Positions 33,283 through 61,168 of a DNA stretch of 64,000 nt are shown piece after piece. Each line of letters begins with the position of its first letter. The stretch's first letter is position 1. A program made the translations under genes and the position numbers. The DNA is from the human T2T-CHM13v2.0 reference genome, Homo sapiens: the NCBI RefSeq assembly GCF_009914755.1, contig NC_060946.1. The stretch is one strand, 5' to 3'. The notes below the pieces were generated by a model that saw only the letters and a program-made list of their open reading frames with translations, was not told the origin of the DNA and searched no databases.

Positions 33283-33354
33283 GCTGTAATGATGAGCAAT
33301 CATGGAACCACAGGAAACTTCTTCCTGGCTGGCCAAAATCTATCATGGTTGCCA
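33283..33354 (+). pseudogene. SGLT-like exon 2 (72 nt)
   Basis: ttttgtttttAG|...|GTgagc. AVMMSNHGTTGNFFLAGQNLSWLP vs SGLT1 [24 protein letters not shown] (12/24 identical). Confidence 0.9.
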
Positions 33355-33509
33355 GTGAGCAGGCCTTGCATCCACTTTGGAAGGTATGTGTAAGCTTGTC
33401 TGTTACTTTGATTTAGACGTCTAATCCCCAAAATAATGTGAAGTTGCTAAATCAAGAATGTTATTTAATTAGTAGTTTCCTTAACTTTCAAGTAGTTTAC
33501 CTAAATGTG

Positions 33510-33930
33510 TGCATTCAACTCCAGTTTAGTTCAGTAATTATATAATAGGTGCCCAGTGTGGACAAGGCTGTGTTGTAGGTTCCACAACATAGATAGGAAA
33601 TAGCCCTGTCTTCTGTAAGCACACAACCCAGAATGAGAATTAGACACATATTTAACTAATTACAGTAATTACATCGCTGGACAATATGTCTAATAGGAGG
33701 TGCGTGGGCCAGGGATGGGTGAAAAGGAACCAAGGGCTTGCTGGGTGGAGGGAGTACGTATTGCAAGATAGGCAGGATCTTACTGAAGTGGGGTTATTTG
33801 AGCAGGATGTGGAGATGAAATCAGTGTTTGCCAGGTAGATTAAGTGAGAGGGCATTCAGGGCAGAGAGAACAGCATATGCCAAAGAACGGAGGTGTGGAA
33901 CAGCATGAGGCAGGCTGAGAGGGCTAGAAA
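33510..33930 (-). mobile_element. L2 fragment
   Basis: Diverged L2 3' region (ggcattcagggcagagagaacagcatatgccaaag). Confidence 0.6.
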
Positions 33931-34984
33931 CATTTTTTGTTGTGTGTTTAACTTATTGATTATGCAAAGTTATTCTGTCCAAGAATGACTCAAAAACCCC
34001 ATGGCAGTGGAGGCAGCTGCCCGCACTGTATCTATGATGTGGGTGGTGGTGGGGGTGCCCTAGGGAGGAGGAGGATGTGAGGACCCATGCCAAGTTTGAG
34101 CCAGGACTGCTTTATAACTTACTATGTAAAAATATGTATGCATTTCCCACATAGGAGTGTAAGGAATATTTAGAGAATTGTGTGAGAACCAGGCCTTTGT
34201 TGAATAATTTATTGAATGTCCTCAGTTTCTCACATTGGGGTAACACTTGATAGAGAGAAGTCTTGCCTCAGGAGGAGAAAAGTACCTTATTCCAAGGCAA
34301 GAAATAAGTGCAATCATTAACTCTGCTGAATCAAACAACCTAAAAGAAATAGCCTTGCCTTGGTTATCTTGGAGACTGGGGGAAATCTTTTTTCCTGGTG
34401 TTAACTCTCTGAATGATGTTTTGGTTTTCTTCCTTTGTAAACTCAACTTAGAGAGATTGACACGGCAAAAAGATGTTTGTAATGGGCCTCCTACCTTCAT
34501 TTCTTTTTTGGCAGAGGAGTCTAGCGATGCATTTCTATTCCTAGGCTGTGAGGCTCCCCAGTCTTTTGTCTGAGCCACTCTTTGGCCTTAAAGTTGTATT
34601 TTCTGTATCCAGAAAAGAGGAAATCTGCTACCTGTGTGACCTTGTATAACTGCGACAGCTGTAAGGATTTTCAGAAGTCCTGAACATGCTTTAACCTCCC
34701 AATGTTTATATATATTATGATTTATTAATTTCTGTACTATGACTTTTTTTCATTATTACATTAATTGCTTTACGAACAAAACATATTATGGTGTTATTAA
34801 AGGAAATTAAAACCAAAGAATAATTTTACTACTCTTTCTGCACTTGTATATTTCTTCAATCAGCACACATCTGATGAGTGTCAATAGCTCTGGTCAGGGA
34901 CCCCAGCGACCAGCACACTGCTTATTTTTGCATTCAATTCTGAGCCCCCATCTTGCCTGGCTTAGCTGTGATGTCTGAAACCCT

Positions 34985-36160
34985 CAGACTCCACCCTCCC
35001 TACATGGTCACCTGGCTCCCAGGCCATCGCCCTCTCCTTCCCCTGCTTCACCAGCCCCTGCTCAACTCCCTGCCTTGTTCTTTCCCATCTCCCCAGCTTC
35101 TTCATACTGGAGGTCCCCAGGGCTTTGACCCTGACCTCTCTTCTCCAATTGCACTCCTCACTTGGCAATCTCATCCCACCTCCTAGCTTTAAATGCTAAT
35201 TGGAGGGTAACAACCCCCAAATTTACATCCATAGGCCAGATCTCTCCTTGAACTCCAGACTTATGTTGTCTGGCTGCTTGTTTGACACCTGCCCTGGAAA
35301 GGCCTCTCAGGGCTCTCCCCCTGAACATGCTACAAAGGGAACTCTGGGTTTTCCTCTGTAAATCCTCTTCTCCCGTAGTCTCCCCATCTCATTCACAGCA
35401 GCCTCCTCCTGCTTGCTCAGGTTGGCAAACTTTGCATCAGCGTAGGCTCTTCTTTTTCTCTCATACCCAACATGCAATCCATCAGAAAATCCTGTGCTCG
35501 ATCTAGAAGATACTTGGAACCTGACCAATTCTCACCAACTCTACCCCCAGGGCCATGCTGCCGTCATCTCTCATCTCAGTTAAAACAGCCTCTTTGGGTT
35601 CCCTGCTCCCACCCTAGCTTCTCTGCATGAAGACTCCACAAAGCAGCTAAAGGAGCCTATTCTAACTCAAGGCACACAATGGCACTTTCCAGCTCAGAGC
35701 CCTCCAGCGCCTCTCCATCACCAAGAGTGAAAGCCCAGTTGCTTACAATGGCCTACATCAGGCTGCAGGGGATCTGCACCTCCTTCCCTCTCAGGCCTTG
35801 CCTCTTAGGATGCCTGTCCCCAGCTCTAGTCAGCATCCTTCAATGTTTCTGCCATGCTTCCACTTCAGGGCCTGTGCCTGGATGCTCTCTCTGGATATCC
35901 CCACGGGTCCCTCCCCTCACCTCTTCTGGTCTCCCTTGGCTCTCTCCTATGCAGTCAGCCCCGGCCGCCCTGTTACTCAGGGTTCCTGGCCACTTCCCCA
36001 CCTTTCTTTGCTATATAGTGCTTATTGCTGTCTGTTATGCTATAAAATCATCCTCTAATTTATTGTGTTGTTTCTCTTCTTTCCAAAAGCATGTTGGCCT
36101 CATGAGGGCAGGGATGGGATTTTTGTCTATTTCACTCACTAATGTGTCCTTAACACCTAC
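34985..36160 (+). mobile_element. L2 fragment
   Basis: Pyrimidine-rich L2 3' region (ccagatctctccttgaactccagact; catgagggcagggat). Confidence 0.75.
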
Positions 36161-36164
36161 AATG

Positions 36165-36467
36165 GGCCAGGGGCAGTGGCTCACGCCTGTAATCCCAGCA
36201 CTTTGGAAGGCCGAGGCAGGTGGATCACCGGAGGTCGGGAGTTTGAGACGAGCCTGATCAACATGGAGAAACCCCGTCTCTACTAAAAATACAAAATTAG
36301 CTGGGCGTGGTGGTGCATGCCTGTAATCCCAGCTACTCAGGAGGCTGAGGCAGGAGAATCACTTGAACCCAGGAGGCGGAGGTTGCAGTGAGCCGAGATC
36401 GCACCATTGCACTCCAGCCTGTGCAGCAAGAGCAAAACTCCATCTCAAAAAGAAACAAAAAACAAAA
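36165..36467 (+). mobile_element. AluSp/Sq-like
   Basis: Full dimer with aacatggagaaacccc; TSD aacacctacaa. Confidence 0.9.
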
Positions 36468-36534
36468 AACACCTACAACGGTACCTCACCTATAGTTGGC
36501 AATGGACCCTAATGCATATGAAATTAATAATGAC

Positions 36535-59147: not shown

Positions 59148-59325
59148 CAGGGGTCAACAAATCTGGTCAGCAGGCCAATCTGGATAATGATGGGCTTTGT
59201 GCAGCTCTGAAGCTAAGAATGATTTTTATAGTTTTAAAAGGTTGTAAAAAAAAAAAAAAAAAAAAAAAGAGAGATGGTATGTGACCAGCAAACTTGCCTT
59301 TACAGGAAAAGTTTGCTGATCCCTG
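59148..59325. mobile_element. MER58-like hAT fossil
   Basis: Terminal inverted repeats caggggtcaacaaa...tttgctgatccctg. Confidence 0.75.
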
Positions 59326-59665
59326 AGAAGTCATTCCCGTTCCCTTTTTCCAGTGGTGGAACTGTAAAAACAACTAACTCTCTGAACTAATTCCCTCTCT
59401 GAAGCTCCAGAGTGGAAGAGGCTAAGTTGTGCCACTGGAAGAATGGGGTTAACTCAAGCCCTAAAAGTACTAACCTTGGCTGAACTCATGGGGCACAAGC
59501 CTATGCTCAACAAAACGGATGAACCTTACCCAGTGTCCACTGGTGATGTAGTGCTATTCAGATACCACCTCTGGTAGATGGCTTCTAAGGTCAGTGTCTT
59601 TGTGGAATCACTGTGGATTTAGTTGGAAGTGAAAGTGCAGCCTGCTGACTCCGTATTCATTTCAG

Positions 59666-59768
59666 TTGGAGGTTTGCTCTTCTGCCGTGTTCATGAAGAT
59701 AGTTTAGGAAATGGGTGTTTAACTGATCACAATCTCGCTGAAAATTGCTGGCATTCATACCATCTCAG
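59666..59768 (+). pseudogene. SGLT-like exon 6 (103 nt, two nonsense codons)
   Basis: tttcAG|...|GTgagg, ends in phase 1. LEVCSSAVFMKIV*EMGV*LITISLKIAGIHTIS vs SGLT1 [35 protein letters not shown]. TAG at 59705, TAA at 59720; one codon shorter. Confidence 0.82.
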
Positions 59769-60544
59769 GTGAGGTTACTCTAACCACACAAGTACTTACA
59801 TTGGCACACTCTACTTAGTGGATGACAGAGAAGTCATTCTACCTAAAGATAGAGAAGTCTATCTCTGTGAATGACAGAGATGTCATTCTACCTAACATCT
59901 CTGCAGTTTGTAGAAAAACTCTTTATAGAGTTTGTAGACATTGAAGCAGCAGTCTCCAGCTTTTGCACTTACCCTAAGTCTGTAAATGACATTGCTAAGA
60001 CCTGAGGAGACTGAACAATGAAAAGAACAGAGACGGGGGGCCTAAGTAGTGTCCTCCCACTAGAAATCAGCTTGGGCTGGCTGGGTCCCTCCCAGGGGTC
60101 TGACAGGGACAACAGCGATTATGTCTGCGGTGGGGAGGGACACTGCAGGCCACCAGGTAAAAGACTGGGAGCACAGAAGACAAATGATGGGGAGGCAGCA
60201 GCCATGGGCCACCTGGTCAGGCCTGATCAGATGGAATCTTTTGTAGGGGCAGTTCTGTCCTAGGCAGCTACTGCCTAGGTTCTGAGAGTGGAAGCTCTCA
60301 CCACTCCTTCTTTCCAGCAACAGTGCAAATCTCAGATGCTGGGTGTTTCCCTGGCAGTTCACCAGAGACCAAGGGGAAAGAATCAAAGTGAGGCACAGAA
60401 TGCCCTCAATCAGTGGTTCACAGTGCAGAGGAGTGGGAATTGGATTTTTCTTCCCAGAGGGCACTTGGTAATGTTTGGAGGCATTCTGGGTTGTCACAGC
60501 TGGGCCAGGGGGAGCTCTGCTGGCTGTTAACTGTTGCTTCCAGG

Positions 60545-60815
60545 TCAGGTGCAGTGGCTCATGCCTATAATCCCAGCACTTCAGGAGGCTGAGGCAGGAG
60601 GATCCTTTGAGCTCAGGAGTTTGAGACCAGTGTGGGCACCATGGCAAACTCTGTCTCTACAAACATTTTTAAAATTAGCCAGGTGTGATGACACACACCT
60701 GTAGTCCCAGCTACTCAGGAGGCTGTGGGAAGACTGCTTGAGCCTGGGAGATCCAGGCTGCAGTGAGCTATGATCATGCCATTGCACTCCACCCTGTCTT
60801 AAAAAATAATGATAA
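60545..60815 (+). mobile_element. AluJ (preceded by MER20 fragment 60410-60530)
   Basis: Diverged Alu dimer. Confidence 0.85.
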
Positions 60816-61087
60816 AAATTTTTAAGAAAGGGAATTAAAGGGAAATTAGGAAATTGTGACACAGAAGGGCAAGATAAGAATCCAACAAGAGATCATGAAG
60901 GACATTAAAGAGAGAAAACAGGATGGACTAAAACTAAGCATAAGTCACTCACTGAATTAAAGAGATCAAGCGCCTGAATGTGGAGAACTGGGGGTGTGGT
61001 GGGGAGTATACAGAGTACTTGATGTGGGAGTAACTTTCAGAAGAGTGAGTCAAATGTGGCTTTCTTTCTCTCTCTTTGCCTGTTCAG

Positions 61088-61168
61088 GTGGTTTGATAGC
61101 TGTGGTTTATACCAGCATCTTGAATGCTGACATTATGCTTTGGGGATCAGTCATGTTAATAGGCTTTG
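61088..61168 (+). pseudogene. SGLT-like exon 7 (81 nt, donor mutated)
   Basis: Long pyrimidine tract then ttcAG|, phase 1. GGLIAVVYTSILNADIMLWGSVMLIGF vs SGLT1 [27 protein letters not shown] (16/27 identical). Followed by GGAAGT instead of GTAAGT. Confidence 0.92.

What the first reader, a model, noticed from the sequence alone, without database searches (positions are those of the whole stretch)
33283..61168. Hidden lost sodium-glucose-cotransporter-like gene (possible unitary pseudogene of a distinct SLC5 paralog)
Seen: six exons spread over 28 kb of repeats, with lengths 72/105/60/105/103/81 nt, correct order, compatible phases and AG/GT boundaries; the ORF track catches only parts of two. 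Established (recalled): SLC5A1 exons 2-7 are 72/105/60/105/106/81 nt. Identity to SGLT1 is only ~45-63% in the five best exons. Inference: this looks too divergent for a recent SLC5A1/SLC5A4 duplicate. It is more likely an ancient separate SGLT-family member, inactivated in this lineage and possibly intact in other mammals. From memory, mouse has extra SGLT-like genes such as Slc5a4a/b and predicted Gm5134; this needs verifying.
Basis: partly seen in the sequence, partly recalled or inferred. Interest (0 to 1): 0.9.

Follow-up and report, generated by a model that had tools for sequence, protein, structure and literature searches.

The report
Relic of a lost SGLT gene
A broken, intron-containing remnant of a third SGLT1/SGLT3-like sugar-transporter gene lies between the lambda light-chain genes and RSPH14 on human chromosome 22, so humans have lost a transporter gene that some other mammals still appear to keep.

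Summary
Six SLC5-type exons (72/105/60/105/103/81 nt) lie on the + strand at window 33283-61168. Four more (exons 12-15) lie beyond the window, so the relic spans about 70 kb (T2T chr22:23,407,283-23,477,355) and ends about 5 kb before RSPH14.

It is not a copy of SLC5A1 or SLC5A4; AU tests reject both placements (p about 1e-11). It belongs to a third mammalian lineage, which I call L3, sister to SGLT1+SGLT3 (clade support 100/100). L3 includes a naked mole-rat "SGLT1-like" protein and five unnamed database representatives. The relic shares loop insertions and exon-specific motifs with them.

The human copy is dead:
- three in-frame stops;
- one frameshift;
- two lost splice sites;
- no detectable exon 1 or exons 8-11;
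- 10 of 43 otherwise-invariant residues changed.

No intact L3 copy was found elsewhere in the genome. This fits a non-processed, unitary-type pseudogene.

Not shown here: orthology to mouse Gm5134, timing of the loss, and whether GENCODE/HGNC already lists it. A symbol SLC5A4P1 exists, with location unknown to me. RefSeq lists nothing here. Interest is moderate.

The parts
33283..33354 (+). Pseudo-exon 2 (72 nt, open, phase 0-0)
   Evidence: ttag|..|gtgagc. 12/24 identical to SGLT1 and to SLC5A4. SGLT profile E 0.0016-0.022. No Pfam hit on its own.
39562..39666 (+). Pseudo-exon 3 (105 nt, open)
   Evidence: cag|..|gtaagt. Pfam SSF E 2.9e-4, profile 11-48. Human SGLT1 residues 70-104, E 2e-5. 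26/35 to lineage-3 P0123 and 22/35 to SGLT1.
43017..43076 (+). Pseudo-exon 4 (60 nt, open)
   Evidence: cag|..|gtaagt. 11/20 to P0132, 10/16 to the mole-rat protein, 9/20 to SGLT1. Weak alone (profile E 0.11-0.63).
57107..57211 (+). Pseudo-exon 5 (105 nt, open)
   Evidence: cag|..|gtgagt. Pfam SSF E 2.0e-4, profile 68-106. 39-52% to the seven human SGLT-type paralogs. 21/35 to P0132.
59666..59768 (+). Pseudo-exon 6 (103 nt = 106-3, phase kept, two in-frame stops TAG and TAA)
   Evidence: tttcag|..|gtgagg. Nucleotide similarity to paralog exon 6 is not above shuffles. 16/32 to lineage-3 proteins, with the shared VE[VI]C..A.F motif. The stops align with W and Y of the mole-rat protein.
61088..61168 (+). 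Pseudo-exon 7 (81 nt, open; donor lost)
   Evidence: ttcag| acceptor, but GG instead of GT after the exon, with gtaaaa 4 nt further on. Pfam SSF E 1.5e-4, profile 130-164. 16/27 to SGLT1.
61169..64000 (+). Start of the 11-kb gap after exon 7, where exons 8-11 should lie but are not detectable. The relic continues beyond the window end with exons 12-15.
   Evidence: Positions below are window-equivalent and lie outside the window.

- Exon 12, 72193-72297 (L009:8193-8297). 3' part only, one in-frame stop, and the bases flanking the matched stretch are not AG or GT. 5 of 5 lineage-3 probes at E 9e-4 to 0.15. Profile E 0.01-0.045.
- Exon 13, 82855-83070 (L010:8855-9070). 216 nt, open, tag|..|gtaatt. 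Profile E 9e-18. Human SGLT1 484-554 at E 4e-11.
- Exon 14, 86642-86749. Acceptor reads GG. 23/40 to P0132, E 8e-9.
- Exon 15, 103037-103355. One frameshift; ends YFA+TGA. Joint E 1.9e-20 with P0132.
- Exons 8-11 and exon 1 are not found by two profiles and seven lineage-3 probes.

Best explanation
This is the decayed, intron-containing (non-processed) remnant of a third mammalian SGLT1/SGLT3-like gene, a lineage I call L3. It lies on the + strand between IGLC7 and RSPH14.

Shown:
- Ten colinear pseudo-exons (2-7 and 12-15) cover about 70 kb, with the SGLT exon structure.
- The relic groups with L3 proteins of other species, not with SLC5A1 or SLC5A4.
- It cannot encode a transporter, and no intact L3 copy was found elsewhere in the human assembly.

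Inferred:
- The ancestral gene encoded a Na+-coupled sugar carrier of the SGLT1 type. A full-length L3 protein (P0124) has SGLT1's residue at all six of the recalled sugar/Na+-site positions I list (78, 83, 102, 204, 453, 457), though it differs at two others tabulated (79, 101). The relic still has four of the six.
- The gene was inactivated in the human lineage and has since drifted neutrally. Alu insertions and a processed ATP5PF pseudogene have entered its introns, and the block holding exons 8-11 has been lost or eroded.
- It does nothing as a gene today.
For: Anatomy. Exons 2-6 have AG/GT sites and lengths 72/105/60/105/103 nt, and exon 7 is 81 nt. This matches SLC5A1 and SLC5A4 in the same genome.

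Homology:
- Pfam SSF for 3 exons, colinear.
- PDB best hits are human SGLT1 70-104 and 484-554.
- The 10 best of 8694 ORFs are all + strand and colinear.

Lineage:
- Careful ML tree, 27 rows x 662 columns: the relic sits inside a 7-row clade at 100/100, sister to P0132 at 92/89.
- AU tests reject relic+SGLT1 (p 9e-12) and relic+SLC5A4 (p 1.6e-11).
- Shared rare changes with L3 that SGLT1 and SLC5A4 lack: a loop insertion of about 25 residues and a 4-residue insertion in exon 15, plus motifs in exons 4, 6, 13 and 14.
- Exon 15, mostly the poorly conserved C-terminal loop, is 41/72 to P0132 against 18/46 to SGLT1.

Death:
- Stops in exon 6 (two) and exon 12 (one); frameshift in exon 15; exon 7 donor and exon 14 acceptor read GG.
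- Exon 1 and exons 8-11 are not found by two profiles and seven L3 protein probes.
- 10/43 unique changes at otherwise invariant columns, against 0-2 in 20 of the 24 other rows.

Unitary:
- A genome-wide search with exon 13 finds only the relic, a broken 0.8-kb DNA copy on chr12, and the known paralogs at 46% or less.

Synteny hint from print (passages only): SLC5 genes flank the IGL locus in goat and other artiodactyls and in horse. In mouse an SLC5 gene sits beside Vpreb3 on chr10 (PMC5899754, PMC9614664).
Against: - No single exon reaches the Pfam gathering score (20.3-21.2 vs 22.8 bits). The other 6 pieces tested gave no SSF hit (exon 13 lies past the model's end).
- Overall identity to L3 members is modest (144/268 to P0132, 180/376 to P0124) and not far above SGLT1 (168/360). 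The relic and the L3 rows have long branches (0.7; 0.3-0.5), which invites long-branch attraction. The case therefore leans on the shared insertions and the AU tests, and the AU test shares the model's biases.
- Five of the six non-human L3 proteins are unnamed cluster representatives, and several look like imperfect models. P0125's C-terminus matches the relic's exon 14 in another frame, P0132 is fragmentary, and the mole-rat model P0122 starts within exon 4. So 'intact elsewhere' rests mainly on P0124.
- In artiodactyls the SLC5 genes are reported at the V-gene (5') end of IGL, whereas the relic lies at the C-gene (3') end. The synteny is therefore suggestive, not established.
Confidence: 0.85

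Rival explanations
1. It is a decayed segmental duplicate of SLC5A1 or SLC5A4, which lie about 9 Mb away on the same chromosome. Its divergence would then be only neutral decay.
For: Same chromosome and the same exon structure. Exon 3 is 63% identical to SGLT1, and exon 13's best solved-structure match is SGLT1. Other SLC5A4-derived fragments are scattered through the genome, including the 22q11 low-copy repeats.
Against: AU tests reject both placements (p 9e-12 and 1.6e-11). The relic shares insertions and motifs with L3 proteins that SGLT1 and SLC5A4 lack. It is equally distant (44-51%) from primate, rodent and marsupial SGLT1 and from SLC5A4.
Confidence: 0.03
2. L3 is a dead lineage everywhere: the database 'proteins' are automatic models of pseudogenes. 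The human relic would then be one copy of an ancient loss shared by most mammals, not a loss specific to primates or humans.
For: P0125 carries a wrong-frame C-terminus and has 8/33 unique changes at invariant columns. P0132 lacks many exons. The two mole-rat models differ from each other. The L3 branches are long.
Against: P0124 is full length (668 aa) with 4/37 unique changes and has SGLT1's residue at 78, 83, 102, 204, 453 and 457. The mole-rat protein has 2/26. Mouse Gm5134, if it belongs here (not tested), is spliced and expressed in testis (PMC6345566 passages).
Confidence: 0.1
3. The locus still makes something useful: a truncated protein from the open exons, or a regulatory or non-coding RNA.
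For: Seven of the ten exons are still open and five keep both splice sites. A RefSeq enhancer lies elsewhere in the window (hub table).
Against: No start exon was found. Exons 8-11 are missing. There are stops in exons 6 and 12 and a frameshift in exon 15. RefSeq lists no transcript here (hub table). No expression data were available to me.
Confidence: 0.03

Closest known systems
SLC5A1 (SGLT1), human 22q12.3
   Same: Same family and subfamily. Exon 2-7 lengths and phases are identical apart from 3 nt in exon 6. It is the best solved-structure match for exons 3 and 13.
   Different: Only 168/360 identical. It lacks the exon 15 loop insertions. The AU test rejects a common clade that excludes L3. 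SLC5A1 is intact; the relic is not.
SLC5A4 (SGLT3), human 22q12.3
   Same: Same exon structure and the same wider clade (98/96).
   Different: 155/360 identical. The AU test rejects a common clade. SLC5A4 has E at position 457, whereas the relic and 3 of 6 L3 proteins have Q as in SGLT1.
Naked mole-rat 'sodium/glucose cotransporter 1-like' (P0122; also P0121) and unnamed representatives P0123, P0124, P0125, P0128, P0132
   Same: Same clade at 100/100. Shared insertions and motifs. With the relic's exon 13 alone as query, P0121 and P0122 were the only 2 of 35 candidates to score.
   Different: These are predicted proteins of other species and at least some are full length. Identity to the relic is only 43-54% over shared columns. 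Species of the unnamed ones are unknown.
Mouse Gm5134 (and Slc5a4a/b)
   Same: Extra rodent SGLT-type genes with no obvious human counterpart. From memory, they lie on mouse chr10 near Vpreb3. PMC9614664 (passage) prints an SLC5 gene beside mouse Vpreb3. Gm5134 mRNA is spliced in testis (PMC6345566 passages).
   Different: No sequence of these genes was available, so orthology is untested. Rat Slc5a4b (P0068) was listed among SLC5A4-type hits but was not placed in a tree.
Classical human unitary pseudogenes (for example GULOP; recalled, no call)
   Same: A single-copy gene dead in humans, keeping introns at the ancestral locus, with apparently intact counterparts in other mammals.
   Different: Timing, shared mutations across primates and any physiological consequence are unknown here.

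Membership tests
Sodium:solute symporter family (Pfam PF00474 / SLC5), by descent | Significant, colinear match to the family profile | tested here: met
   3 exons at E 1.5e-4 to 2.9e-4 in profile order. The same 3 were found in the genome-wide scan. Each is below the 22.8-bit cut-off on its own. 10 of 10 best ORFs are colinear with an SGLT profile.
SGLT-type subfamily gene structure | Exons 2-7 of 72/105/60/105/106/81 nt, phase 0 through exon 6 | tested here: met
   The relic has 72/105/60/105/103/81. SLC5A1 and SLC5A4 were measured in the same genome.
Lineage 3 (L3) of the SGLT1/SGLT3 group | Monophyly with L3 proteins, plus the shared exon 15 loop insertions and the exon 6, 13 and 14 motifs | tested here: met
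   100/100 clade. Alternative placements rejected. Insertions and motifs seen in the alignment.
Functional SLC5 transporter gene | Complete open reading frame across all exons with usable splice sites | tested here: not met
   3 stops, 1 frameshift, 2 splice sites lost, and exon 1 and exons 8-11 undetected.
Processed (retro)pseudogene | No introns, exons contiguous | tested here: not met
   Gaps of 1.3-16 kb between exons, with AG/GT at most boundaries.
Duplicated pseudogene of SLC5A1 or SLC5A4 | Nested within the parent gene's clade | tested here: not met
   AU p 9e-12 and 1.6e-11.
Unitary pseudogene | No functional copy of the same lineage in the same genome | tested here: met
   Exon 13 searched against the whole T2T assembly gave only the relic itself, a broken chr12 fragment (62% over the hit, with a stop and a frameshift), and the known paralogs at 46% or less. 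The tool scores only its best candidates, so this is strong but not exhaustive.
Unitary pseudogene | Intact ortholog in other species | tested here: inconclusive
   P0124 (668 aa) and the mole-rat models look intact. Other L3 models are fragmentary or frame-shifted. No expression or selection test was done.
Unitary pseudogene | Conserved synteny with the intact ortholog | not testable with these tools
   Only printed passages are available: SLC5 genes next to IGL in artiodactyls and horse, and next to Vpreb3 in mouse. Their lineage and exact position relative to RSPH14 are unknown to me.

The most novel reading that the evidence does not exclude
Mammals have a third, so far undescribed SGLT1/SGLT3-type sugar transporter lineage that split off before SGLT1 and SGLT3 separated, and so before the marsupial-placental split. 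It would still be active in some species, perhaps as the testis-expressed mouse Gm5134, and was lost in the human lineage. This 70-kb relic next to the lambda light-chain locus would be its only trace. Rodent models would then carry an SGLT-type carrier that people lack, which matters when transferring SGLT pharmacology and sugar-sensing physiology from rodents to humans.
Probability: 0.45. Interest if true: 0.6.

Novelty: new member of a known kind. Interest (0 to 1): 0.5.

Why it matters
The SLC5 sugar carriers are major drug targets and are described as a closed set of human genes. A dead extra member with living relatives in other mammals shows that the human set is a reduced one.

It points to an uncharacterised transporter lineage that can be cloned and assayed from other species. 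It also warns that rodents may have an SGLT-type activity with no human counterpart.

The relic gives a fixed landmark for reconstructing rearrangements around the IGL locus, where SLC5 genes are used as synteny markers in other mammals.

It is still one gene loss among the many known in humans, and it may already be listed in GENCODE.

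Tried and rejected
- Word-index protein search with the 89-aa ORF around exon 5: 259 candidates, none at E <= 0.01. The query was too short.
- Pfam on exons 2, 4, 12 and 13 and two weak pieces: 0 of 6 gave SSF.
- Nucleotide search for exon 6 with six paralog exons: scores 25-32 against shuffle maxima 28-35, so not significant. 3 of 6 queries nevertheless pointed to 59678-59768.
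- Exon 1 and exons 8-11: not found with a 5-sequence profile, a 33-sequence profile, two mole-rat probes or five other L3 probes. Weak candidates were judged to be chance:
  - 27874-28116 (E 29);
  - -6065..-5988 (E 1.6, with stops);
  - 75563-75640 (E 5, out of order);
  - 65878-66114 (E 0.26, low complexity).
- A possible second relic upstream (12142-12339, E 0.3-5; 23605-23823, E 0.09-2) was not supported when retested.
- 81345-81554 (E 0.1-7) overlaps the profile range of exons 12 and 13 and was dropped.
- The rodent 'SGLT1-like' proteins of Chionomys, Microtus, Marmota and Callospermophilus fall inside the SGLT1 clade and are not L3 (quick tree).
- The stray SSF-like fragments on chr1, chr11 and in the 22q11 repeats score best with SLC5A4-clade proteins and are not L3.
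- Literature:
  - 'Slc5a4a'+'Slc5a4b'+'pseudogene': 0 papers.
  - 'unitary pseudogene'+'SLC5A4': 0 papers.
  - 'SLC5A4P/SLC5A1P/SLC5A4L': 1 paper, symbol only.
  - 'SLC5'+'pseudogene'+'SGLT'+'lost in human' (any 3): 42 papers, 15 listed, none on this locus by title or abstract start.
  - SGLT1-like/Slc5a4a/SGLT3b terms: 5 papers, none on a third lineage by title or abstract start.

Full report
**1. What is there**

The window is T2T chr22:23,374,001-23,438,000. A stop-to-stop ORF list already showed SGLT-like peptides on the + strand. I located them exactly.

Three of four ORFs tested hit Pfam PF00474 (sodium:solute symporter) at E 2.9e-4, 2.0e-4 and 1.5e-4, at profile positions 11-48, 68-106 and 130-164. 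These are colinear, but each is just under the 22.8-bit cut-off. The fourth ORF was in the wrong frame for exon 2. A genome-wide scan with the same Pfam model found the same three exons at this locus among 73 matches.

Exon 3 matches human SGLT1 residues 70-104 in the Protein Data Bank (E 2e-5). All 5 sequences found were SGLT1 or SGLT2.

**2.

I measured exons 2-7 of SLC5A1 and SLC5A4 in the same genome from their splice sites. Both are 72/105/60/105/106/81 nt.

| Relic exon | Window coordinates | Length (nt) |
|---|---|---|
| 2 | 33283-33354 | 72 |
| 3 | 39562-39666 | 105 |
| 4 | 43017-43076 | 60 |
| 5 | 57107-57211 | 105 |
| 6 | 59666-59768 | 103 |
| 7 | 61088-61168 | 81 |

AG precedes all six exons. 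GT follows exons 2-6, but exon 7 is followed by GG.

103 is 106 minus 3, so the phase is kept, but exon 6 holds two in-frame stops. Exon 6 was the weak point. Nucleotide alignment to six paralog exons scored 25-32 against shuffle maxima of 28-35, and protein searches with SGLT1 and SLC5A4 missed it.

**3. The relic is much longer than the finding**

I fetched the flanks from IGLC7 to RSPH14, 144 kb in all.

A first profile, made from five human paralogs, gave its best hit outside the window. It lies at window-equivalent 82855-83085 on the + strand (E 4.8e-10, 7116 ORFs). This is exon 13, and it matches human SGLT1 484-554 at E 4e-11 against SGLT2 at 9e-5.

A 33-sequence profile gave ten hits at E <= 0.2 among 8694 ORFs. 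All ten are on the + strand and in gene order. There were none on the - strand at E <= 1.

Protein probes of the closest lineage then found four things:
- Exon 12 at 72193-72297, partial, with one stop.
- Exon 14 at 86642-86749 (23/40 to P0132, E 8e-9).
- The last exon at 103037-103355, which needs two reading frames (one frameshift) and ends with YFA plus TGA, as the family does.
- Exon 6 itself, at 47-50% identity.

The relic therefore runs from 33283 to 103355, about 70 kb, and ends 4.9 kb before RSPH14 (position from the hub table). Exon 1 and exons 8-11 were not found by any profile or probe. The gap between exons 7 and 12 is 11.0 kb and holds several Alu-like repeats (matches).

**4. What it is related to**

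Exon 5 is 39-52% identical to all seven human SGLT-type paralogs. Over 269 relic columns, identity to 37 comparison rows is 40-51%. Over the same columns, human SLC5A1 vs SLC5A4 is 75% and SLC5A1 vs SLC5A2 is 69%.

A database search seeded with exon 13 of the relic, SLC5A1 and SLC5A4 returned 1461 proteins, of which 120 were listed. All named ones are vertebrate SGLT1 or SLC5A4 types, and none exceeds 49% identity to the relic exon. Across seven exons, the 45 best scored 117-123 of 237.

With the relic's exon 13 alone as query, only 2 of 35 word-sharing candidates scored. Both are naked mole-rat proteins, named 'sodium/glucose cotransporter 1' and '1-like'.

That protein is itself only 52% identical to SLC5A1 and SLC5A4 in these columns. 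It shares relic-specific strings, including an identical 12-residue run in exon 13 and the exon 6 motif. The relic's two exon 6 stops align with its W and Y.

An exhaustive search with the mole-rat protein found closer-than-SGLT1 representatives: P0123 (74%), P0125 (62%), P0124 (56%), P0128 and P0132 (53%). All of them share signatures with the relic:
- VE[VI]C in exon 6 (P0124, P0125 and the mole-rat protein; the other three lack the column).
- L[HN]A in exon 7.
- LVSL..MLGIS in exon 13.
- LH[QR]LCWSL in exon 14.
- In exon 15, a shared loop insertion of about 25 residues and a 4-residue insertion, both absent from SGLT1 and SLC5A4.

**5. Tree and tests**

I ran a careful ML tree (27 rows, 662 columns, LG+C20 PMSF):
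- The relic sits in a 7-row clade, L3, at 100/100 (bootstrap/SH-aLRT), next to P0132 (92/89).
- L3 is sister to SGLT1+SLC5A4 (82/83), and the three together have 98/96.
- Marsupial SGLT1 sits inside the SGLT1 clade (96/91).

So, if the rooting holds, L3 split off before the marsupial-placental divergence. The 82/83 node and L3's long stem make this tentative.

AU tests reject relic+SGLT1 (lnL -78.4, p 9e-12) and relic+SLC5A4 (lnL -77.9, p 1.6e-11). These were run on the quick tree, and the groups were named after seeing an earlier tree. Long-branch attraction cannot create the shared insertions.

**6. Why it is dead**

- Three stops: two in exon 6 and one in exon 12.
- One frameshift, in exon 15.
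- The exon 7 donor and exon 14 acceptor read GG, and exon 12 has no AG or GT at the edges of the matched stretch.
- No first exon and no exons 8-11.
- 10 of 43 columns that are invariant in all other rows are changed in the relic. The figure is 0-2 in 20 of the 24 other rows. The exceptions are P0125 (8/33), rep_P0134 (8/41), P0124 (4/37) and P0132 (3/18).

I also checked positions that I recall, from the SGLT1 literature and not from a call, as sugar or Na+ site residues:
- The relic keeps N78, H83, F453 and Q457, but has K for E102 and S for D204.
- Full-length P0124 keeps all six, though it differs from SGLT1 at two other tabulated positions (T for I79, S for F101).
- SLC5A4 has E457. Only the title and abstract start of PMC2857651 were seen for the role of that position.

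This is the basis for inferring that the ancestral L3 protein was a transporter of the SGLT1 type. The inference was not tested.

**7. Is there another copy?**

Exon 13 searched against the whole assembly finds four kinds of hit:
- The relic itself.
- A chr12 hit at 62% identity.
- SLC5A1 and SLC5A4 at 46%.
- Weaker paralogs.

The chr12 piece is a DNA-level copy of about 0.8 kb: the end of intron 12, exon 13 and the start of intron 13. It is 81-82% identical and carries a stop and a frameshift. It shares the relic's extra codon, and an Alu interrupts the relic side only. So those exon 13 peculiarities predate an old duplication. No intact L3 gene was found.

**8. Context in print**

Passages only were read for these papers.
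- In goat, the IGLV genes are flanked on the 5' end by SLC5A4, with ZNF280B and PRAME inside the V cluster, 'consistent with cattle and pigs' (PMC5899754).
- In artiodactyls, with horse discussed alongside, VpreB2 at the 5' end of IgL is flanked by two SLC5 genes and by ZNF280A/B. In mouse, Vpreb3 on chr10 is flanked by an SLC5 gene (printed as SLC5A2), while the IgL block moved to chr16 (PMC9614664).
- Gm5134 mRNA is spliced in mouse testis and is called a solute transporter (PMC6345566).

SLC5 genes are thus old neighbours of the lambda locus. The human relic, however, lies at the C-gene end, not the V-gene end, and I could not tell which lineage those annotated genes belong to.

**9. Prior knowledge**

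The RefSeq table supplied by the hub lists only ATP5PFP2 in the window and nothing up to RSPH14.

A symbol SLC5A4P1 appears in one paper's gene list without a location (PMC12539833). Its supplements could not be opened.

A chr11 element is a spliced copy, with exons 12, 13 and 15 contiguous. It is 56-79% identical to SLC5A4 proteins across its three pieces and has a stop. It is a more natural bearer of that name than a relic whose nearest human gene is SLC5A1. This is an argument, not a look-up. Five literature searches found no description of this locus or of a third lineage (plus 60/63).

**10. Verdict**

This is a real, non-processed pseudogene of a distinct SGLT1/SGLT3-like lineage, consistent with a unitary loss. 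It is a new member of a known kind, of moderate interest. The interest would rise if L3 proves to be a living, uncharacterised transporter in model species.

Noticed in passing
G000:C12:107796313-107796495 (-), locus L039: A fragment of about 0.8 kb on chr12 is a DNA-level duplicate of the relic's intron 12 end, exon 13 and intron 13 start, at 81-82% nucleotide identity. It carries a stop and a frameshift and lacks the Alu that now interrupts the relic side (window-equivalent 83114-83377).
   Followed up: yes
G000:C11:124302597-124303199 (+), locus L043: A spliced (processed) SLC5A4-type pseudogene with exons 12, 13 and 15 contiguous. It is 56-79% identical to SLC5A4 proteins across its three pieces and has an in-frame stop. 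It is a candidate owner of the symbol SLC5A4P1.
   Followed up: partly
G000:C22 at about 18.85, 18.93, 19.05, 19.13, 19.24, 20.79, 21.60, 21.71 and 23.89 Mb; loci L040, L041: Exon-12-like SLC5 fragments recur in the 22q11 region where low-copy repeats lie. Two copies fetched are 99% identical to each other, score best against SLC5A4-clade proteins (59% to a cat-family SLC5A4), and are 75% identical in DNA to a chr1 fragment. Most copies have a second piece about 3.4 kb away on the other strand, carrying a TAA.
   Followed up: partly
G000:C1:171108083-171108244 (-) (L042); C18:12376391 (+) and C18:10784231 (-); C13:13669516 (-); C5:61449781 (+): Further isolated SLC5 exon-12-like fragments, 42-57% identical to SLC5A4 exon 12. 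The chr1 piece runs on into exon-13-like sequence without an intron. The others were not examined.
   Followed up: partly
window 37135-37460 (+): The annotated processed pseudogene ATP5PFP2 lies inside what is intron 2 of the relic, between exon 2 at 33354 and exon 3 at 39562.
   Followed up: no
window 39937-40460: A long simple and low-complexity stretch (GA- and CA-rich, giving runs of E/R/K or S/L/P in translation) sits just after exon 3. It produced spurious matches to the charged loop of the mole-rat protein.
   Followed up: no
P0125 versus window-equivalent 86649-86870 and 103059-103118: The C-terminus of the unnamed database protein P0125 matches the relic's exons 14 and 15 in a different reading frame (42% and 60%). 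That predicted protein is therefore probably a frame-shifted model of an orthologous gene or pseudogene.
   Followed up: partly
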